DNA of 64,000 nt. Origin: Candidatus Alloclostridium intestinigallinarum. GTDB taxonomy: Bacteria > Bacillota > Clostridia > Christensenellales > UBA3700. This document shows, piece after piece, positions 45,482-52,730 of this stretch. The stretch is from contig CAJFNB010000002.1 in NCBI GenBank assembly GCA_904393845.1, forward strand, positions 638-64,637, read 5' to 3'. Both the position numbers and the translations under genes were made by a program. Every line of letters begins with the position of its first letter. Position 1 is the stretch's first letter. The notes beneath the pieces were generated by a model. It saw only the letters and a program-made list of their open reading frames with translations, ran no database searches and was not told the DNA's origin.

Positions 45482-45934
45482 TTACAATTCCCCGCCGAAT
45501 CTGCCTTTCAGATAGGGAATAAGACAGTCTATGCCGGCGGAAATATCCGCGGCGCATTTGTCGTAAGCCGCCTGGTCACGCCCGTAAGGGTCGGAAATAT
45601 CGCCGCCCGCGGTAAATTCGCAAAAAGCGGCAAGTTTGCCGTCGTCCGCCACCGCGGCGAGCGCCGCGCGCTGCTGCCAGGTCATAGTAACTATGAAATC
45701 GCTCTCTTCAAGAAGCTGCGGCGTGACGGGCTGTGAAAGATGCGAAAAACCGGTAATACCCAGCTTTCGCAACGCCTCCTCGGCTTTGGGATTCACCCTT
45801 TCCCCGTACGTCAGGGACATCGCCGCGCTATCCGCACCCATATTCAGCTTCTGCTCCTTCGCCTTGTGCGTGAATATTGCCTGCGCCATGGGCGAACGGC
45901 AGGTATTGCCCGTGCATACAAACAAAACTTTCAT
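45482..45934 (-). CDS. Low-molecular-weight protein tyrosine/arginine phosphatase
   Basis: 150 aa. VLFVCTGNTCRSPMA (CX5R P-loop) and DISDPYG (DP loop). Confidence 0.9.
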   Translation of the reverse strand: MKVLFVCTGNTCRSPMAQAIFTHKAKEQKLNMGADSAAMSLTYGERVNPKAEEALRKLGITGFSHLSQPVTPQLLEESDFIVTMTWQQRAALAAVADDGKLAAFCEFTAGGDISDPYGRDQAAYDKCAADISAGIDCLIPYLKGRFGGEL

Positions 45935-46923
45935 ACCCTTTTACCTCCTGCGGCCTTGTTGACCCTGTTCATCACCGAAGCCGCCACCCCCTGCGTGCCC
46001 AGATCCTCGCATATTATAAAATCGGCTATCTTTTCCCCTTTGTGAAGCGCCGAATATATGTTGCGGCATACCTGCGCGTCGCCTTCGCCCAAATCTATAA
46101 ATCTGCATCCGCCCAGCCCCGCGGTATGTTCGCTGCGGCATAAAATCACGGGATTGCCGCCCCTTTTCTTCACCTTTTTGTAACATTCCTCCGCGGAAGA
46201 TATGCTCTCCGCCACCACGCATTCGCACGCTGGCGCGTAATGCTTATACTTCATTCCGGGCGCGGGCGCCGCCGCCAGCACCTTGCCGCTGTGCGACTTC
46301 ACGTCGCCGCCCAGCACGCTTGCTATCATTTCCGCGGTCACGGCGCCCGGCCGCAAAATAACGGGAGTGTCGCCCGTCACGTCGAGCACGGTGGATTCTA
46401 TTCCCACCTTACTCTCTCCGCCGTCTATGATGAGCGGAATCCTCCCCTTCATATCTTCGTAAACGTGGCGCGCGGACGTGGGGCTTATCCTTGTGGAAAG
46501 ATTTGCCGAAGGCGCCGCGACGGGCACTCCGCACGCGGCGAGAAACGCCGAACATACGGGGTCGGACGGTACGCGCACGCCCACGGTATCCAGACCCGCG
46601 GTGACTTCGTCGGGAATATCTTTCCTGCGCGGAACGACCAGCGTAAGCGGTCCCGGCATGAACGCGTTTACAAGCGCGTTGTATTTTTCGTCAAAACCGC
46701 TCGTAACTGTCGGAATAAGTTTTTTATCCGCAAGATGGACGATGAGAGGATTGTCCATCGGTCTGCCCTTTGCGGCAAAAACCGCCCTCACCGCGCCGGG
46801 ATCGTACGCGTTCGCGGCAAGTCCGTATACCGTTTCGGTGGGAAAAGCTACGACTCCGCCGGCACGGACTATTTCCGCACCCTCCTTTATTGCCTGTTCT
46901 CCGCTTAAAATTTTCGTTTCCAT
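45931..46923 (-). CDS. tsaC: L-threonylcarbamoyladenylate synthase (Sua5/YwlC type, with Sua5 C-terminal domain)
   Basis: 330 aa. VAFPTETVYGLAANA, KGRPMDNPLIVH, SANLS. Confidence 0.92.
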   Translation of the reverse strand: METKILSGEQAIKEGAEIVRAGGVVAFPTETVYGLAANAYDPGAVRAVFAAKGRPMDNPLIVHLADKKLIPTVTSGFDEKYNALVNAFMPGPLTLVVPRRKDIPDEVTAGLDTVGVRVPSDPVCSAFLAACGVPVAAPSANLSTRISPTSARHVYEDMKGRIPLIIDGGESKVGIESTVLDVTGDTPVILRPGAVTAEMIASVLGGDVKSHSGKVLAAAPAPGMKYKHYAPACECVVAESISSAEECYKKVKKRGGNPVILCRSEHTAGLGGCRFIDLGEGDAQVCRNIYSALHKGEKIADFIICEDLGTQGVAASVMNRVNKAAGGKRV

Positions 46924-46924
46924 A

Positions 46925-47692
46925 TCACTCCGCCAACCATAAGATGAGCGCCCCGGCTATTATGCCGAGAATGGCGAGCACCGCCACTTTTTTGCATTTG
47001 GTGCGCGCATACGCCTCCGCAAGCATATCGTCGAATATAATGTAGAGCATCGCGCCCGCCGAAAGCGCAAGGCATATTCCGGTCAGAACACCCGATATAT
47101 TGCTCACAAAGTAGCCTATCAGCGCGCCCGCCGAAAGTGCAAGCCCCGTGGACGCGGCTATGACGACGCCCAGCCACCGTTTAACGCCCGCCCTGTAAAA
47201 AGCCGCCGACATGGCTATGCCTTCGGGTATATTGTGCAGGGCGATAAGCACCGCCGCAAGCCACGCCGAACCGCTTGCGGACAAACCGCCTATCATCATT
47301 CCTTCCGGTATATTGTGCAGTATAAGCGCGGTCATCAGCGAAAACCCGACGTAAAGTTCGCGCTTGCCTTCCGCACTGTGCAAATCTGGCATATCCCCGC
47401 TGTCGTCGTGTCTGTGCTCGCCGGCTTTCCTGTCAAGAATTATACCGGCAAGGAATACTATCCCCGCGCCCGCCAGCGTAACAAGCAGAGTTATCCATAT
47501 CTGACCCGTGGAATCAAGCGATTCGGGCAGAACGTCCAAAAATACCAGCGCCGCCATAAAGCCGGCGGTGAATGCCATCAGCGCGCTCAGCAATTTTTCG
47601 CCCCTGCCCCTTACGGATACGGGGATAAGCGCTCCTGCCAGCGTGCCGCCCACTCCGGCGAGCAGACTCCAAAGCAATGCTTCCCACCACAT
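46925..47692 (-). CDS. ZIP-family divalent-metal transporter
   Basis: 255 aa. Duplicated HNIPEG(M/I) motifs and a His/Asp-rich loop (EHRHDDSGD). Confidence 0.88.
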   Translation of the reverse strand: MWWEALLWSLLAGVGGTLAGALIPVSVRGRGEKLLSALMAFTAGFMAALVFLDVLPESLDSTGQIWITLLVTLAGAGIVFLAGIILDRKAGEHRHDDSGDMPDLHSAEGKRELYVGFSLMTALILHNIPEGMMIGGLSASGSAWLAAVLIALHNIPEGIAMSAAFYRAGVKRWLGVVIAASTGLALSAGALIGYFVSNISGVLTGICLALSAGAMLYIIFDDMLAEAYARTKCKKVAVLAILGIIAGALILWLAE

Positions 47693-47807: not shown

Positions 47808-47845
47808 TTTACTTTTCGCGCGCGCGATGATATAATAATATCATC
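47808..47845 (+). promoter_or_regulatory. Promoter with a perfect 8-4-8 palindrome over the -10
   Basis: TTTACT (47808-13), 17-nt spacer, TATAAT (47831-36). GATGATAT-AATA-ATATCATC lies at 47826-47845. Confidence 0.45.
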
Positions 47846-47869
47846 AAAGAAAAAAAGGAGATTTTTCTT

Positions 47870-49339
47870 ATGGATCAATTCGTAAACACCATGACGTCAC
47901 CGTTGTTTTCGGTGGGCAGCTTTGATTTCCCGCTTTACGCACTGATTATCGTTGCGATAGCATGTATACTTATAATCATCGTACCCTCCGCCATTGCTTC
48001 CGCCATGCACACCAAAAAGATGAAAGCGGAAGAACAGGCAGCAAACGAAGCTGCCGACAGCAAGGCAGCCGAAGAGGAAGCCGCACGCAAGGCAGCCGAA
48101 GAAGAAGCCGCACGTAAGGCTGCGGAAGAAGAAGCCGCACGCAAGGCAGCCGAAGAAGAGGCCGCTCGTAAAGCAGCCGAGGAAGAAGCCGCACGTAAGG
48201 CAGCCGAAGAGGAAGCCGCACGCAAGGCAGCCGAAGAAGAAGCCGCACGTAAGGCAGCAGAGGAAGAAGCTGCTCGTAAGGTAGCCGAAGAAGAAGCCGC
48301 CCGTAAGGCAGCAGAGGAAGAAGCCGCACGCAAGGCAGCGGAAGAAGAAGCTGCCCGTAAGGCAGCGGAAGAAGAAGCTGCCCGTAAGGCAGCCGAAGAG
48401 GAAGCTGCACGCAAGGCAGCCGAAGAAGAAGCTGCACGCAAGGCAGCCGAAGAAGAGGCCGCTCGCAAGGCAGCCGAAGAAGAAGCCGCACGCAAGGCAG
48501 CGGAAGAAGAGGCAGCACGTAAGGCAGCAGAGGAAGAAGCCGCACGCAAGGCAGCCGAAGAGGAAGAAGCCCGCGTAGCCGCAGAAGAAGAGGCTAAGGC
48601 CGAGGAAGAAAAGAAGGAAGACGAAGCGAAAGCGGAAGAAGTTGCCGCTACCGAAACCGCTCCCGTCAAAAAGCCTACCACCAGGAAACCCGCAAACGCC
48701 AACAAGAAGGCGAAGAGCGCAGTAGTACAGGAAGAAAAACCGGCAGAACCCGTTGCCGAGGATAAGGAGGAAGAACAAGTGAAAGCAGAAAAGAAACCCA
48801 CCACGAGAAAGCCTGCCGCCGCATCCAAGAAAGCGGAGGAAAAGAAAGCCGCCGAAAAGAAGACGGTAAAGCCCGCGGCAGAAAAGAAGACCGCCGCAAA
48901 ACCCGCGGAGAAGAAAGCCGTTCCCGCTAAGACGGAAGAGCCCGCTCCCACCAAGAACATCACCCTTCTCTCCGACGAGCCCGCTAAGCCCGCCGGCGGC
49001 AGATACGTGATCATCATGGATTCGGAAAATCCCATGAAGCCTTACAAGTTCCAGCTGAAGGCGAACAACGGTCAGGTTCTTTACGAATCGGAAGGCTATA
49101 AGGCCAAGCCCAAGAAGGCGTCCATTATGGCGTTCAAGAAGGCTGTGGAGCAAGGCACGCTTGCAATCGACAAGGAGAAGAACGGCACTTACCGTTACAA
49201 GCTGTACAAGGCTGACGGCACCCTGCTCGGCGTAGGCGAAAGCTATTCCGCAAAGGCGAGAGCCGAAAGTTCCGCGGAATCCGTAAAGGCGTTTGCGGCA
49301 AGCGCGAACTTTATCGAAGACCTCACTATAACCGAATAA
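47870..49339 (+). CDS. Membrane-anchored protein: TM helix, (KAAEEEAAR)n charged helix, basic K/P/A linker, two YegP/DUF1508-like modules
   Basis: 489 aa. SD GGAG lies 9 nt upstream. The TM helix is [25 protein letters not shown], followed by HTKKMK. C-terminal modules are [35 protein letters not shown] and [37 protein letters not shown] terminator follows. Confidence 0.75.
48062..48601 (+). repeat. In-frame 27-bp tandem repeat, 18 near-identical plus 2 degenerate units
   Basis: The unit is AAGGCAGCCGAAGARGAAGCCGCACGY. I checked units 1-5 base by base and read the remaining phase-aligned units by eye. Confidence 0.9.
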
Positions 49340-49360
49340 AACCGGATTGTTTCTACATAA

Positions 49361-49390
49361 AAACCGTCGCTGTATGCGGCGGTTTTTTTA
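49361..49390 (+). terminator. Rho-independent terminator
   Basis: AAACCGTCGC-TGTAT-GCGGCGGTTT followed by TTTTTATT, 22 nt after the stop. Confidence 0.7.
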
Positions 49391-49438
49391 TTCGGCAAAA
49401 CACGAATCCGTGCACTTCCGGAAGCGTTTTTACGGGCT

Positions 49439-50038: not shown

Positions 50039-50989
50039 TCAGACGCAGGCGGAAATGACGGTCATTCCTCCGCGCAAAGTAAACTCTCCCAGACCCGCCG
50101 GAAGAAAGAGGGTATCGCCCAGGGCTATGTCGAAGGACGTATCCTGCCATATGAGCACGCCTTCGCCTTCTGTACAGGTAAGCGATAGGAAGCACTCCTG
50201 CCCTACCGCGCCCTTGTATTCCGGATCAACCTTTATTTCACGCACGGTAAAATACTTGCAGCTTGCAAGGCGGCGCACTCCGTCGCTTTCACACACCACG
50301 TTTTCGTTGGGAGAAGTCACGGCGGCGGTGTTTACCACCTGCAGAGCTTTTTCTATATGCAGTTCGCGTTTTTTGCCGTCCTTGCCCACTCTGTCGTAAT
50401 CGTACAGGCGGTATGTGAGCGAAGAGTTTTGCTGGACTTCGCAAATGAGCAGTCCACCGCAGATGGCGTGGACGGTGCCTGACGGTATATATATGCTGTC
50501 GCCCTTTTTTACCGGAATAAAATTGAGTAAATCCAAAATTTTTCCGCCTTTGAGCGCGTCTTCCAGCTCCGCCGCGTCCACCGCCTTCTTAAAGCCGCAG
50601 TACACGCCCGAACCTTCTTCCGCATCAACTATATACCACATCTCACTCTTTCCATATTGACCTTCCTTTGCAAGGGCGTATTCGTCGGACGGGTGTACCT
50701 GTATGGATAAATTCGTCTTGGCGTCTATGAGTTTGATAAGTATGGGGAAAAACTCGAACTGTCCGCACTTTTCACCCTTATATAGGGGCATATGTTCAAG
50801 CAGTTCGCCGAGCGGCATACCTGCGTACTCGCCGTTTTCTATCACGCTCATTCCGTCGTTATGGCAGGAAAGCTCCCAGCTTTCCGCTATCACGTCGCCT
50901 TCAGACGGCTTTTTCCACTCTCTCTTCAATCGGGTTCCGCCCCAGACGTAATCCTTAGTTGCCGGTTTGAGTTTCATCGGATATATCAT
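50039..50989 (-). CDS. manA: Class I mannose-6-phosphate isomerase (Bacillus ManA type)
   Basis: 316 aa. KDYVWGGTRL, ESWELSCH, QVHP and GTVHAI cupin metal-site motifs. Confidence 0.88.
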   Translation of the reverse strand: MIYPMKLKPATKDYVWGGTRLKREWKKPSEGDVIAESWELSCHNDGMSVIENGEYAGMPLGELLEHMPLYKGEKCGQFEFFPILIKLIDAKTNLSIQVHPSDEYALAKEGQYGKSEMWYIVDAEEGSGVYCGFKKAVDAAELEDALKGGKILDLLNFIPVKKGDSIYIPSGTVHAICGGLLICEVQQNSSLTYRLYDYDRVGKDGKKRELHIEKALQVVNTAAVTSPNENVVCESDGVRRLASCKYFTVREIKVDPEYKGAVGQECFLSLTCTEGEGVLIWQDTSFDIALGDTLFLPAGLGEFTLRGGMTVISACV

Positions 50990-52730
50990 TCTTCTCCGCC
51001 TCCTTTCCTTTTGCCAATTTTACGATAAATTCCGACCCCTTTCCTTCCTCGCTTTCCAGCGTGATTTCTCCGCCGTGCATATTGACGATTATATGCTTGA
51101 CTATCGCAAGCCCGAGTCCGGTACTGAGTTCATCGTTGCGCGTATGCGCCTTATCCGCCTTGAAGAACCGCTCGAATACGCGCGGTTTATCTTCGTCGGA
51201 AATGCCTATGCCGTTATCCTTTACCGAGATGCAGACGTATTCTCCGTCTTCGTGCACCTTCACCCATACGCTTCCGCCTTCACGGTTATATTTTACCGCG
51301 TTGCTCACCAGGTTGGTTATTGCCGTGGTCATCATCTTGGGATAGCACTCCGCCATTCCGTCACCTTCGCAGAATATGGTAACTCCCGCATTCTGCGCCG
51401 CGCCGCCCATATCATCGCATATGGAACGGCACATTCCGCCCAGGTCGACTACAGCCTTTTCCTCGTTTACTATATTGGCGTCAAGACGGCTGATAAAGAG
51501 CATATCGTTTATCAGTACGCCCATTTTATCTGCGTTGGTCTGAATTTCGCTTACGCAGCGCGAGATATTCTTTTCACTCTGCCCCGGAATGGTAAGCAGT
51601 TCGGAATAGCCCTTTATTACCGTGAGCGGAGTTTTGAGTTCGTGCGAGGCGTTCGCAAAAAATTCGCTCCTTATGTCTGCCGAACGGCTTTCCTGGGTGA
51701 TATCGGTAAATGTTAAAAGCAACGCGAATGTATTGTACGTTTCAAACCACGATCCGCTCGCTATCAGCGTTTCCACCCTGTATACGTTGCCCGCGCGCCT
51801 GAATTCGCAGCCGTCCTTTTCGCCGTTCTCCTGTGTGCGCGCTACGGCGGCGATTATGCTTTCATCGTCGATGACGTCTTCCAGCCTCTGCCCTGCGATG
51901 TTGCCCTGTAAGCCCAGAATACGCAAAACCGCATTGTTATAGGTAAGTATGCCGCGCGTATCGGAAAGCGCGATTATTCCCTGTCCTATGTTGTCCAGCA
52001 AAAACGCCGCCTTTCTCTGCTCGTACTTTATCGAGCTGAGCGAAGCGGATATTTTTTCGCTTATATCGCTTATCTGACTGACTATTCCGCGGAATTCTTC
52101 ATAATCCGTACTGACTGCGATACCGTGGAAGTTGCCGTTGTTTATGTCGTTCAGACCCTTCTGCACCGCTTCGAGCGGGCGCATGGAACGCTTCAGATTG
52201 AGGTTTGTTATACCCATTGCAAGCAGAATGAGTAAAAGCGCAACCGCTATACTGCTGCCGAAGAATATCCAGAAGTTCTCCGAAGCCCAGTCCGCGGTAA
52301 TAAGGACGCGCAGAAATATCCTGCCGTTGCTGTCGATGTTGGATTCCACGTTCACACGCGTGGTAAGCGAAAGCATGGTTATGCCGTCATACTCCACCGT
52401 ATTGAAAACTTCACCTCCGGAAGCCGCCGTCTGCAAATCGCCCAGATTCGCGTTTTCCGGCGGCGGCGCGTTGGAAGCTATCAGATTGCCGTCGCTGCTG
52501 TATATAAAGATGATTACCGAACGCGTGGGAAACATATTCGCGCTCTGTGCCAGCTCGTAGACGTAGTCCATATCTTCAAGCTGGCGGGCGTATTGCTGGG
52601 AAAAACTGCTCAGCGTACTGCGCACATTAAGATAACTCGCCAGCAGGTAACCCCCGCAGGCGAGCAAAATAACGAGTATAAGCGTGACGCTTATTGTAGT
52701 AAATATCTGACGCGACAGCTTACTGCGCAT
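50955..52730 (-). CDS. Sensor histidine kinase (TM-sensor-TM, HAMP, PAS, HisKA, HATPase)
   Basis: 591 aa. H-box FFANASHELKTPLT, N-box SNAVKYN, G-boxes DNGIGI and GLGLAIVKH. Confidence 0.9.
   Translation of the reverse strand: MRSKLSRQIFTTISVTLILVILLACGGYLLASYLNVRSTLSSFSQQYARQLEDMDYVYELAQSANMFPTRSVIIFIYSSDGNLIASNAPPPENANLGDLQTAASGGEVFNTVEYDGITMLSLTTRVNVESNIDSNGRIFLRVLITADWASENFWIFFGSSIAVALLLILLAMGITNLNLKRSMRPLEAVQKGLNDINNGNFHGIAVSTDYEEFRGIVSQISDISEKISASLSSIKYEQRKAAFLLDNIGQGIIALSDTRGILTYNNAVLRILGLQGNIAGQRLEDVIDDESIIAAVARTQENGEKDGCEFRRAGNVYRVETLIASGSWFETYNTFALLLTFTDITQESRSADIRSEFFANASHELKTPLTVIKGYSELLTIPGQSEKNISRCVSEIQTNADKMGVLINDMLFISRLDANIVNEEKAVVDLGGMCRSICDDMGGAAQNAGVTIFCEGDGMAECYPKMMTTAITNLVSNAVKYNREGGSVWVKVHEDGEYVCISVKDNGIGISDEDKPRVFERFFKADKAHTRNDELSTGLGLAIVKHIIVNMHGGEITLESEEGKGSEFIVKLAKGKEAEKNDISDETQTGN

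What the first reader, a model, noticed from the sequence alone, without database searches (positions are those of the whole stretch)
47870..49339. Membrane-tethered 'ruler' protein: TM anchor, ~170-residue (KAAEEEAAR)n helix, histone-H1-like linker, tandem YegP/DUF1508 modules
Seen in the sequence: a 22-aa N-terminus and one TM helix are followed by HTKKMK, so the positive-inside rule puts everything downstream in the cytoplasm. Next come 18 near-perfect and 2 degenerate KAAEEEAAR nonads. Then there is ~150 aa of K/P/A/E-rich low complexity with a duplicated KKPTTRKPA..(N/S)KKA motif. Finally there are two ~50-aa modules that match my recollection of the YegP/UPF0339 (DUF1508) repeat. Established knowledge: alternating E and K/R blocks form stable single alpha-helices used as rigid spacers, and at 0.15 nm per residue ~170 residues spans about 25 nm. 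Inference: a fixed-length stalk projects a basic, possibly nucleic-acid-binding, segment and a YegP pair of unknown function from the inner face of the membrane. I know of no characterised bacterial protein with this architecture. It is expressed from its own palindrome-bearing promoter and has its own terminator.
Basis: partly seen in the sequence, partly recalled or inferred. Interest (0 to 1): 0.7.

Follow-up and report, generated by a model that had tools for sequence, protein, structure and literature searches.

The report
Membrane-tethered YegP domain on helical stalk
An uncultured gut Clostridia bacterium encodes a membrane-anchored protein that holds an uncharacterised YegP-type domain roughly 30 nm into the cytoplasm on a perfectly repeated charged alpha-helix; it is a lineage-specific variant of a large, unstudied family of membrane-tethered YegP proteins, and its function is still unknown.

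Summary
Window 47870-49339 (+) is a 489-aa gene with a promoter, ribosome-binding site and strong terminator.

**Architecture**
- An acidic 21-aa N-tail, one TM helix and an HTKKMK stop-transfer.
- 20 KAAEEEAAR nonads (17 perfect), whose DNA differs almost only at synonymous sites.
- A disordered K/P/A-rich linker with a duplicated KKPTTRKPA motif.
- A tandem DUF1508 domain: Pfam E=6e-15; fold matches E. coli YegP (2K8E) at TM 0.65/0.71.

**What the tools added**
- The gene is the local form of a large unnamed family: at least 83 50%-identity clusters at E<=1e-30.
- About 110 of the top 147 representatives have one N-terminal TM. The K/R bias puts the C-terminal part in the cytoplasm in 116 of 118 scored single-TM sequences (2 ties, 0 reversed).
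- Spacers are normally acidic, proline-containing and disordered. The helical rod occurs only in the Caccalectryoclostridium-like clade, where it spans 181-218 aa across four species.

So "tether" is supported and "fixed-length ruler" is not. The promoter palindrome is not conserved. Four related scaffolds break inside the array, so the copy number needs long reads.

The ligand is unknown. Nucleic-acid binding is plausible but untested.

Verdict: a new variant of a known kind, of moderate interest.

The parts
47808..47836 (+). Sigma-70-type promoter: -35 TTTACT, 17-nt GC-rich spacer, TG-extended -10 TATAAT
   Evidence: 10 of 12 matches, TG present. The -35, GC-rich spacer and extended -10 are conserved in orthologues across the clade.
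47826..47845 (.). 8-bp inverted repeat GATGATAT-AATA-ATATCATC overlapping the -10; probably incidental
   Evidence: Present in the window. The right arm is not conserved in L006, L007 or L009.
47856..47861 (+). Ribosome-binding site AGGAGA, about 8 nt before the ATG
   Evidence: Read from the sequence. AAAGGAGA / AAGGGAGA is conserved upstream of the orthologues.
47870..49339 (+). Complete CDS, 489 aa plus stop
   Evidence: The identical protein is in NCBI GCA_019116065.1. Syntenic orthologues were found.
47870..47932 (+). Acidic N-tail (aa 1-21, no K/R), predicted extracytoplasmic; family motif M-[DE]-x-[FI]-x-x-F-[LM]-T
47933..48007 (+). Single transmembrane helix (aa 22-46)
   Evidence: Kyte-Doolittle 19-mer maximum of 3.1. 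Helical in the AF2 model.
48008..48025 (+). Basic stop-transfer HTKKMK (aa 47-52), cytoplasmic side
   Evidence: Family-wide C-flank K+R mean is 5.3 against 1.0 on the N-flank.
48062..48601 (+). 20 x 27-nt array encoding (KAAEEEAAR)n, aa 65-244: core of the charged single alpha-helix
   Evidence: 507 synonymous against 18 nonsynonymous pairwise differences. Charge-pair pattern. AF2 pLDDT ~95.
48026..48661 (+). Whole proline/glycine-free helix-competent segment beyond the stop-transfer (aa 53-264; with aa 47-52 it makes the 218-aa stretch, net charge -29, up to ~33 nm)
   Evidence: The AF2 helix runs aa 23-252.
48662..48955 (+). Disordered K/P/A/E-rich linker (aa 265-362, net charge +12)
   Evidence: AF2 pLDDT ~40. 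Composition and charge.
48668..48694 (+). Short linear motif copy 1: KKPTTRKPA (aa 267-275)
   Evidence: Related K[KR]QPPVRKPA / KRVPPVRKK motifs occur in the relatives' linkers.
48791..48817 (+). Short linear motif copy 2: KKPTTRKPA (aa 308-316)
48956..49336 (+). Folded C-terminal domain (aa 363-489): N-terminal 'NITLL' edge strand plus two beta-beta-beta-alpha DUF1508 modules forming a YegP-type pseudo-dimer
   Evidence: Pfam. AF2 pLDDT 81.7. Foldseek: 2K8E TM 0.65/0.71 and 2K49 0.64/0.69. Profile against PDB gives 8e-34 to YegP. 47 invariant columns across 16 clade members.
49359..49394 (+). Intrinsic terminator: 12-bp stem, 5-nt loop, U-run
   Evidence: -22.4 kcal/mol, z=-4.1, 0 of 200 shuffles fold as well.

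Best explanation
**Shown (about 0.9 confidence)**
- This is a real, vertically inherited, probably well-expressed core gene of uncultured Christensenellales.
- It encodes a type-III (N-out / C-in) single-pass membrane protein.
- The cytoplasmic part is a tether made of three pieces. First, an acidic ~200-residue charged single alpha-helix built from KAAEEEAAR nonads (about 27-33 nm). Second, a ~100-residue disordered basic K/P/A linker carrying two copies of a conserved short motif. Third, a strongly conserved YegP-type tandem-DUF1508 pseudo-dimer.
- Across the family the conserved logic is: membrane anchor, then acidic spacer, then basic stretch, then DUF1508 pair. The rod is this clade's version of a spacer that is usually disordered.

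**Inferred (about 0.3 confidence)**
- The DUF1508 pair, together with the adjacent polybasic segment, is the ligand-binding head.
- It captures a polyanionic cytoplasmic ligand, most likely nucleic acid (nucleoid DNA or RNA).
- The protein would then link that ligand to the membrane, or hold it at a stand-off of tens of nm.
- The acidic stalk would keep the basic head from collapsing onto the anionic membrane surface.
- The short acidic N-tail with a basic C-flank suggests YidC-type, PMF-assisted insertion as for Pf3 coat protein. This rests on my own knowledge and is not tested.
For: **The gene is real**
- Promoter, ribosome-binding site and terminator are present.
- The divergent pairing with Sua5/TsaC is conserved down to 50-59% Sua5 identity.
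- Pairwise differences between repeat units are 507 synonymous against 18 nonsynonymous. My arithmetic on these numbers gives pN/pS of about 0.01.

**Topology**
- C-flank K+R exceeds N-flank K+R in 116 of 118 single-TM sequences, with none reversed.
- The same tail is fused after MMPL (E=1.6e-51) and after 4-TM GtrA-like anchors.
- DUF1508 also occurs in cytoplasmic defence and ubiquitin-like fusions.

**Helix**
- AF2 gives a helix over aa 23-252 with pLDDT ~95 across the repeats.
- Opposite-charge i+3/i+4 pairs number 112 against 50.7+-5.6. Like-charge pairs number 1 against 54.1+-5.5. Only 2 of 200 residues are hydrophobic.
- Designed AEEEXXX repeats form stable single helices (PMC5347031).

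**Head**
- Pfam, PDB and Foldseek all agree on a YegP fold.
- 47 columns are invariant across 16 clade members, while the spacers are unalignable.

**Family logic**
- 80% of 97 spacers are net acidic, with a median length of 175 aa.
- In this protein the helix carries -29 and the linker +12.

**Ligand idea**
- Paralogue linkers give sub-threshold hits to histone-H1-like HC2.
- One published computational proposal likens tandem DUF1508 to sPC4/Whirly single-strand binders (PMC12065111).
Against: - No ligand evidence of any kind exists for DUF1508. The literature calls YegP uncharacterised.
- My fold and profile searches found no PC4/Whirly or other nucleic-acid-binding structure, only UPF0339 entries.
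- The window protein itself gives no HC2 hit.
- Only about 46% of family spacers end in a net-basic 40-aa stretch. The basic segment is therefore not universal.
- AF2 tends to give confident helices for E/K/A-rich low-complexity sequence, so a monomeric single helix is predicted, not shown.
- The copy number rests on short-read assemblies. Four related scaffolds have 100-N gaps inside the array.
Confidence: 0.4

Rival explanations
1. A ligand-free polyelectrolyte or stress protein. The anchored acidic spacer plus head would act as a cytoplasmic-face 'brush' or hydrophilin-like protectant, consistent with YegP being a general stress protein. Under this reading there is no specific binding partner, and spacer chemistry is nearly irrelevant.
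For: - Spacer sequence, length (39-405 aa) and chemistry vary widely across the family while net acidity is kept.
- YegP is described only as stress-induced.
- The strong conserved promoter suggests high abundance.
Against: - The DUF1508 head is very conserved (47 invariant columns). That argues for a specific interaction surface.
- Every nonad is held identical at protein level, which a generic brush would not need.
- A short motif is conserved inside the disordered linker.
Confidence: 0.25
2. The head binds a protein partner or a small molecule, not nucleic acid. The protein would then be a membrane-localising scaffold or sensor, by analogy with the DUF1508 pairs placed at sensor positions in the Menshen NsnA, Bub and CapK/CapS contexts.
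For: - DUF1508 pairs sit at the N-terminal 'sensor' position of NsnA and are fused to ubiquitin-like proteins.
- yegP-like genes lie downstream of capK/capS.
- Fold searches give no nucleic-acid-binding hit.
Against: - There is no PADLOC hit.
- The gene is a syntenic core gene beside Sua5/Zip/PMI, not in a defence island.
- No conserved partner gene is co-transcribed; the gene is monocistronic.
Confidence: 0.2
3. The repeat region forms a dimeric or trimeric coiled coil rather than a single helix, so the protein would be an oligomeric stalk.
For: - Single DUF1508 modules homodimerise (PDB 6Q2Z, cited).
- Long Ala-rich helices can pack against each other.
Against: - Only 2 of 200 residues are L/I/V/M/F/W/Y.
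- A 9-residue period gives no heptad or hendecad seam.
- The charge pattern is intrahelical: 112 opposite-charge i+3/i+4 pairs and 1 like-charge pair.
- A net charge of -29 would repel parallel neighbours.
- Tandem DUF1508 fusions were monomeric in SEC-MALS.
Confidence: 0.08
4. Cell-surface protein. The hydrophobic segment would be a signal peptide or signal-anchor, and the charged helix, Pro/Lys-rich region and DUF1508 domain would lie outside the cell (TolA/TonB-like or Gram-positive wall-spanning).
For: - ASA-M follows the hydrophobic core, resembling an AXA cleavage site.
- The order 'acidic then basic Pro-rich spacer' resembles TonB. The A/E/K helix resembles TolA domain II. Both comparisons rest on my own knowledge.
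- A spurious low-complexity NCBIfam hit to a YSIRK lipase appeared.
Against: - There is no K/R before the hydrophobic core and 3-8 K/R immediately after it, in 116 of 118 family sequences.
- The hydrophobic core is 23-25 residues long.
- There is no LPXTG motif and no TolA/TonB C-terminal Pfam hit.
- The MMPL and GtrA-like fusions place the tail in the cytoplasm.
Confidence: 0.04
5. Assembly artefact. The array length, or even the fusion of the anchor to the DUF1508 part, would be a short-read mis-assembly, and the true gene would be the ~186-aa product starting at GTG-304.
For: - Four related ENA scaffolds carry 100-N gaps inside the array. Gene callers there report only 183-201-aa products that start at the internal GTG.
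- That GTG is preceded by AAGGAGG.
Against: - Four gap-free assemblies (window, L006, L007, L009) give one continuous frame with 16-20 units.
- All four gapped scaffolds still have the same anchor and nonads upstream of the gap, in the same intergenic slot.
- The longest exact internal repeat is 59 nt, shorter than typical reads.
- The HiFi-closed MAG OZ006985.1 has the same anchor-spacer-DUF1508 layout in one ORF, L028.
- The promoter and ribosome-binding site lie upstream of the anchor.
Confidence: 0.05

Closest known systems
E. coli YegP / Shewanella SO_3888 (UPF0339, Pfam DUF1508; PDB 2K8E, 2K49)
   Same: The C-terminal 127 aa are a tandem DUF1508 pseudo-dimer with the L-K-A-x-N-G signature. 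Pfam gives 55 bits, the profile gives E=8e-34 to 2K8E, and Foldseek TM is 0.65/0.71.
   Different: - YegP-type proteins are ~110-aa soluble proteins with no anchor, spacer or basic tail.
- This clade's module scores at least 199 bits against its own profile, while ordinary YegP proteins score 58 or less.
- It has an extra N-terminal 'NITLL' strand.
- The function of YegP itself is unknown.
ER/K-type charged single alpha-helices (myosin VI/X, INCENP, CAF-1 KER, designed AEEEXXX and EAAAK linkers)
   Same: - It is E/K/R-rich with no hydrophobic seam.
- Intrahelical i/i+4 salt bridges are close to maximal.
- AF2 predicts a continuous helix.
- It connects two functional parts as a spacer (PMC4183817, PMC5347031, PMC10335832).
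   Different: - It is 44% alanine and net acidic (-1 per nonad), with a 9-residue rather than 7-residue or irregular period.
- The repeat is essentially perfect at the peptide level.
- It is bacterial and membrane-anchored.
- The helix is continuous with the TM helix in the model.
- At about 30 nm it would exceed the ~15 nm persistence length reported for ER/K helices (my own knowledge). It would be semi-flexible, not rigid.
TolA / TonB
   Same: The layout is analogous: an N-terminal single TM anchor, a long charged helical (TolA domain II) or acidic-then-basic Pro-rich (TonB) spacer, and a small C-terminal globular head.
   Different: - The topology is opposite: cytoplasmic here, periplasmic there.
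- There is no TolA or TonB C-terminal domain.
- No TolQR/ExbBD-type neighbours appear among the Pfam-annotated genes of the syntenic loci.
- It is an analogy in design, not a relative.
Pf3 coat-type N-out/C-in anchors (YidC-only substrates)
   Same: It has a short acidic N-tail, a single TM and a basic C-flank.
   Different: The resemblance concerns charge layout only. The insertion pathway was not tested, and the cytoplasmic domain here is far larger.
Histone-H1-like K/A/P tails (Chlamydia Hc2, Pfam HC2; mycobacterial HupB C-tail; Pseudomonas AlgP)
   Same: The linker has K/P/A-rich (A/P)KK(A/P) composition. Paralogue linkers give HC2 hits of 24-33 bits.
   Different: - Those hits are below the Pfam cutoff of 40 bits, and the window protein gives none.
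- The linker also contains acidic blocks (net charge only +12 over 98 aa).
- DNA binding is untested.

Membership tests
DUF1508 / YegP (UPF0339, PF07411) | Significant match to the Pfam model above the gathering score | tested here: met
   E=6e-15, 55.3 bits against 22, two stretches.
DUF1508 / YegP (UPF0339, PF07411) | Two beta-beta-beta-alpha modules forming a pseudo-dimer like the solved YegP and SO_3888 structures | tested here: met
   AF2 pLDDT 81.7 with the expected element order. Foldseek: 2K8E E=7e-7, TM 0.65/0.71; 2K49 TM 0.64/0.69.
DUF1508 / YegP (UPF0339, PF07411) | Typical architecture: a small (~60 or ~110 aa) soluble protein | tested here: not met
   The protein is 489 aa with a TM anchor and a ~310-aa spacer. 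It is a domain-level member with a divergent architecture.
Charged single alpha-helix (SAH / ER/K motif) | High E+K+R content with opposite charges at i/i+3 and i/i+4, and few like-charge clashes | tested here: met
   Opposite-charge pairs 112 against 50.7+-5.6; like-charge pairs 1 against 54.1+-5.5. Charged residues are 55% of each nonad.
Charged single alpha-helix (SAH / ER/K motif) | No hydrophobic seam that could support a coiled coil | tested here: met
   2 of 200 residues are L/I/V/M/F/W/Y.
Charged single alpha-helix (SAH / ER/K motif) | Predicted as one uninterrupted helix | tested here: met
   AF2 helix over aa 23-252, pLDDT ~95 for aa 80-220. Caveat: AF2 favours helices for such sequence.
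Charged single alpha-helix (SAH / ER/K motif) | Monomeric, highly helical and non-cooperatively melting in solution | not testable with these tools
   Needs CD and SEC-MALS or AUC on residues 47-264.
TolA / TonB energy-transducing tethers | N-in topology with the spacer and head outside the cytoplasmic membrane | tested here: not met
   The charge bias places the C-terminal part inside: 116 of 118 sequences, none reversed.
TolA / TonB energy-transducing tethers | TolA_C or TonB_C domain | tested here: not met
   DUF1508 is the only Pfam hit at E<=1.
Histone H1-like HC2 (PF07382) | Match above the gathering score | tested here: not met
   No hit for the window protein. Paralogues reach 24-33 bits against a cutoff of 40.
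Sec-secreted / sortase-anchored Gram-positive surface protein | Basic n-region signal peptide and a C-terminal LPXTG sorting signal | tested here: not met
   The N-tail has no K/R. The C-terminus is ...FIEDLTITE with no LPXTG.
Known anti-phage defence components (PADLOC) | Match to a defence-system protein model | tested here: not met
   0 families for the whole protein and for the head.

The most novel reading that the evidence does not exclude
Membrane-tethered YegP proteins would be a widespread, previously unrecognised Clostridia system that physically couples nucleoid DNA or RNA to the inner face of the membrane at a controlled stand-off. The DUF1508 pseudo-dimer would be a PC4/Whirly-like single-strand nucleic-acid clamp. 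In the Caccalectryoclostridium clade the stand-off would be set by a natural, selection-maintained ~30-nm single-helix 'ruler'. If so, this would give the first function for the DUF1508 family (including E. coli YegP) and, to my knowledge, the first bacterial example of a single-alpha-helix ruler.
Probability: 0.15. Interest if true: 0.75.

Novelty: new variant of a known kind. Interest (0 to 1): 0.5.

Why it matters
- **A handle on an uncharacterised family.** DUF1508/YegP is a widespread domain with five structures from structural-genomics and small-protein projects and still no function. A large family in which this domain is always tethered to the cytoplasmic face of the membrane through an acidic spacer constrains where and how it acts. 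The domain is the only strongly conserved part of these proteins.
- **A clean natural single-helix module.** The KAAEEEAAR rod is 20 near-identical units kept by purifying selection. It is useful both as a test case for why spacer stiffness or length would matter in a bacterium and as a ready-made protein-engineering spacer.
- **A practical annotation problem.** Such genes are systematically truncated in metagenome annotations because assemblers break inside the repeat.

Tried and rejected
1. **Palindrome as operator.** Rejected: the right arm is not conserved in L006, L007 or L009.
2. **Short (175-224 aa) homologues as evidence that the long ORF is a fusion.** Rejected: the syntenic scaffolds have 100-N gaps inside the array, with the anchor upstream.
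3. **Tracing unit orthology between species through synonymous 'barcodes'.** Uninformative: the alignment score is 93 against a shuffled-order null of 91.2+-2.4. Synonymous sites are saturated.
4. **PC4/Whirly similarity of the head.** No such hit in Foldseek against the PDB (top 50) or in the profile search against PDB sequences.
5. **Viral structure library.** Only uncharacterised phage DUF1508 proteins.
6. **PADLOC and PHROGs.** No defence hit; only unknown-function phage families.
7. **Functional hints from gene neighbourhood.** The conserved pairing with Sua5/TsaC, Zip, PMI and a two-component system looks like inherited synteny. The orientations are divergent or convergent, so there is no operon.
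8. **Search for a cultured carrier.** Three genome scans returned only uncultured Christensenellales or Clostridia MAGs for the anchored forms.
10. **NCBIfam YSIRK-lipase hit (24 bits against a cutoff of 650).** A low-complexity artefact.
Full report
**1. Observation**

Window 47870-49339 (+) is a single 489-aa ORF. Tandem Repeats Finder reports a 27-nt unit x 18.8 copies at 48060-48566, score 720. Translated in register, aa 65-244 are 17 perfect KAAEEEAAR units, one KVAEEEAAR, then KAAEEEEAR and VAAEEEAKA.

The N-terminus has 21 residues with no K/R and two D. A 25-residue hydrophobic core follows (Kyte-Doolittle 3.1), then HTKKMK. KKPTTRKP occurs twice, at aa 267 and 308. Pfam gives DUF1508 at E=6e-15 (55 bits against a cutoff of 22, two stretches).

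A promoter-like TTTACT-17-TGaTATAAT lies at 47808-47836. AGGAGA sits about 8 nt before the ATG. A 12-bp hairpin plus U-run lies 20 nt after the stop (-22.4 kcal/mol, z=-4.1).

Only the segment lengths needed adjusting.

**2. The gene is real and the array is old**

Among the 18 core units there are 14 distinct DNA versions, and every variable column is a third codon position. Pairwise differences are 507 synonymous against 18 nonsynonymous. By my arithmetic pS is about 0.5 and pN about 0.006.

The same peptide unit is kept in three other species (L006, L007, L009), whose unit DNA is as different from the window's as the units are from each other. The array is therefore not a recent slippage product. 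It is maintained by purifying selection on the peptide.

The identical protein is in NCBI assembly GCA_019116065.1, whose 7.1-kb stored segment is identical to the window.

**3. Why the first homologues looked short**

A search with the C-terminal 129 aa returned only 111-224-aa proteins. Many start MK(A/T/E)EKK, which corresponds to GTG-304 of this ORF.

Their syntenic contigs (L002-L005) each contain a 100-N scaffold gap inside the nonad array. The same acidic-tail/TM/HxKKM anchor and nonads lie upstream of the gap.

So the architecture is conserved, but short-read assemblers often fail on the array. The longest exact internal repeat in the window is 59 nt, so a correct short-read assembly is feasible. 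Even so, the unit number (20 here; 16, 18 and 19 in the gap-free L006, L007 and L009) needs long-read confirmation.

**4. Family context**

A scan of species-representative genomes found 26 loci, all in uncultured Christensenellales (Ca. Caccalectryoclostridium, Ca. Ornithoclostridium and unnamed MAGs). Full ORFs share four elements:
- a membrane anchor;
- a long acidic low-complexity spacer;
- a basic K/P/A stretch;
- an N[IV]T[LV]L motif followed by a tandem DUF1508 domain.

The last ~128 aa have 47 invariant columns across 16 sequences. The spacers, by contrast, are unalignable:
- (KAAEEEAAR)n occurs only in the window clade.
- (EEKPVEEAP)n-type Pro-rich repeats occur in many others.
- (PQPEPQPVYQQ)n occurs in the Ornithoclostridium group, including L028 from a HiFi-closed chromosome.

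Paralogues attach the same tail to an MMPL transporter (E=1.6e-51) or to a 4-TM GtrA-like domain. The GtrA-like Pfam hits are weak, at 18 bits.

An exhaustive profile search of 1.84 billion representatives found 1180 hits at E<=1e-3 and 83 at E<=1e-30. Nearly all of the top 150 are 250-740 aa, with the match at or near the C-terminus.
- About 110 of the 147 representatives new to that search have a single N-terminal TM.
- Many carry four DUF1508 modules.
- NCBI labels members simply 'DUF1508 domain-containing' or 'YegP family protein [Clostridia bacterium]'.
- No paper in the searchable library describes an anchored form.

**5. Topology**

I scored 118 single-TM sequences: family representatives, the window protein and eight orthologues. 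The 15-residue N-flank averages 1.0 K+R and the C-flank 5.3. C>N holds in 116, with 2 ties and none reversed. The median N-tail is 20 aa and the median TM is 23 aa.

The MMPL and GtrA-like fusions point the same way. Each has an even number of TM segments and K/R-rich flanks at the end, and by established knowledge both families have cytoplasmic termini.

The cytoplasmic contexts of other DUF1508 fusions also agree. No LPXTG motif, basic n-region, or TolA/TonB domain is present.

**6. The stalk**

AF2 predicts one helix over aa 23-252, with pLDDT ~95 for aa 80-220. Residues 253-360 are disordered (pLDDT ~40) and 361-489 form a folded head.

The nonad places opposite charges at i/i+3 and i/i+4: 112 pairs against 50.7+-5.6 in shuffles. 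It almost eliminates like-charge pairs (1 against 54.1+-5.5). Only 2 of 200 residues are hydrophobic.

This is the signature of a charged single alpha-helix, as in the designed AEEEXXX helices of PMC5347031 and the constant-force springs of PMC4183817. It is not the signature of a coiled coil.

The proline/glycine-free span is 218 aa (up to 32.7 nm at 0.15 nm per residue), with net charge -29. The linker carries +12.

The 'fixed-length ruler' reading is weakened by four results:
- The span is 181, 193, ~185 and 218 aa in the four species that have the rod.
- L009 has a proline between the TM and the rod.
- Sister clades use proline-rich spacers.
- Across 97 relatives the spacers are 39-405 aa, 80% are net acidic, and only one other (P0163, a non-repetitive ER/K helix) is rod-like.

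The family-level function is therefore an acidic tether. The rod is a lineage-specific, strongly constrained implementation.

**7. The head**

AF2 with 40 homologues gives pLDDT 81.7 and two beta-beta-beta-alpha modules. Foldseek's only significant PDB hits are YegP (2K8E, TM 0.65/0.71) and SO_3888 (2K49, 0.64/0.69), followed by the single-module UPF0339 structures. The family profile hits YegP at 8e-34.

The clade is a distinct subfamily. It scores at least 199 bits against its own profile, while ordinary YegP proteins score 58 or less. The NITLL motif forms an extra strand.

No PC4/Whirly or other nucleic-acid-binding fold was recovered. The published sPC4/Whirly analogy (PMC12065111) therefore remains a lead, not a result.

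**8. Regulation and neighbourhood**

The -35, a GC-rich spacer, the TG-extended -10 and a strong ribosome-binding site are conserved clade-wide. The palindrome's right arm is not.

The single-TM gene lies divergently beside a Sua5/TsaC-type gene in almost all orthologues, down to 50-59% Sua5 identity. PMI and a two-component system lie downstream in most. The multi-TM paralogues are elsewhere.

There are no PADLOC hits. This is a core chromosomal gene, not a defence or mobile gene. The neighbourhood gives no functional clue.

**9. Interpretation**

*Shown.* The protein is an N-out/C-in anchor carrying an acidic helical stalk, a basic disordered linker with a conserved short motif, and a conserved YegP-type head in the cytoplasm.

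*Inferred.* The head plus the polybasic segment binds a polyanionic ligand, most plausibly nucleic acid, so the protein couples that ligand to the membrane at a stand-off. The acidic stalk would keep the basic head away from the anionic membrane.

I put about 0.9 on the structural statement and about 0.3 on the ligand statement.

The rivals are a ligand-free stress or brush protein (0.25), a protein or small-molecule-binding scaffold or sensor (0.2), a coiled-coil oligomer (0.08), an extracellular orientation (0.04) and an assembly artefact of the fusion (0.05).

**10. Novelty and score**

Both building blocks (DUF1508/YegP and charged single helices) are known. The anchored family exists in databases but is undescribed. 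The perfect-nonad rod is a clade-specific variant.

I rate it a new variant of a known kind, with interest 0.5. It is a good entry point to an uncharacterised domain family and a clean natural single-helix module, but there is no functional evidence yet.

Noticed in passing
window 48757-48781 (V304 of the ORF): A perfect Shine-Dalgarno AAGGAGG lies 8 nt upstream of an in-frame GTG. Gene callers use it as the start whenever the repeat is broken by scaffold Ns, and the valine is conserved in L002-L009. It could be a real internal start giving a soluble 186-aa basic-tail plus DUF1508 isoform, or just a by-product of K-E-E codons.
   Followed up: partly
window 47814-47830; orthologous promoters in L006-L031: The spacer between -35 and -10 is GC-rich (CGCGCGCG-like) and conserved across the whole clade, which is unusual in otherwise AT-rich intergenic DNA.
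   Followed up: partly
L020:827-4339; L019:2495-4342; L024:619-2214; L029:2711-4348: Paralogues carry the same acidic-spacer / basic-stretch / tandem-DUF1508 tail on different anchors: a full MMPL transporter (E=1.6e-51) and a ~190-aa 4-TM GtrA-like domain (weak Pfam hit). Two of these genomes also have the single-TM form.
   Followed up: partly
P0163 (505 aa) from the exhaustive search: An independent family member has a ~150-aa non-repetitive ER/K-type helical spacer and four DUF1508 modules. Helix-type spacers therefore arose at least twice in the family.
   Followed up: partly
window 48668-48694 and 48791-48817; linkers of L013-L031: A short basic motif persists inside otherwise fast-evolving disordered linkers: KKPTTRKPA here, and K[KR]QPPVRKPA or KRVPPVRKK in sister clades. 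This suggests a docking site.
   Followed up: partly
L002:5444-5543, L003:5458-5557, L004:5688-5787, L005:5631-5730: 100-N scaffold gaps fall exactly inside the nonad array in four metagenome scaffolds. Public gene calls for this family are therefore systematically truncated to the C-terminal third.
   Followed up: yes
window 47897-49153 (-), 47935-49035 (-), 47976-48545 (-): Long antisense ORFs (418, 366 and 189 aa) and about 18 'terminator-like' hits on the minus strand run through the repeat. These are low-complexity artefacts, not genes or terminators.
   Followed up: yes
P0014 (148 aa, 1.2-kb contig): A histidinol-dehydrogenase N-terminus is joined to the last ~40 residues of this protein. 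This is most likely a chimeric metagenome contig.
   Followed up: no
window 45931-47692 (-) and orthologous loci L006-L042: The divergent pairing of the anchored DUF1508 gene with a Sua5/TsaC-type (t6A synthesis) gene is kept down to about 50% Sua5 identity. In the closer relatives a Zip-family transporter gene sits between them.
   Followed up: partly
window 50955-50989: The mannose-6-phosphate isomerase ORF (50039-50989, -) and the histidine-kinase ORF (50955-52730, -) overlap by 35 nt. The same overlap is annotated in related loci.
   Followed up: no
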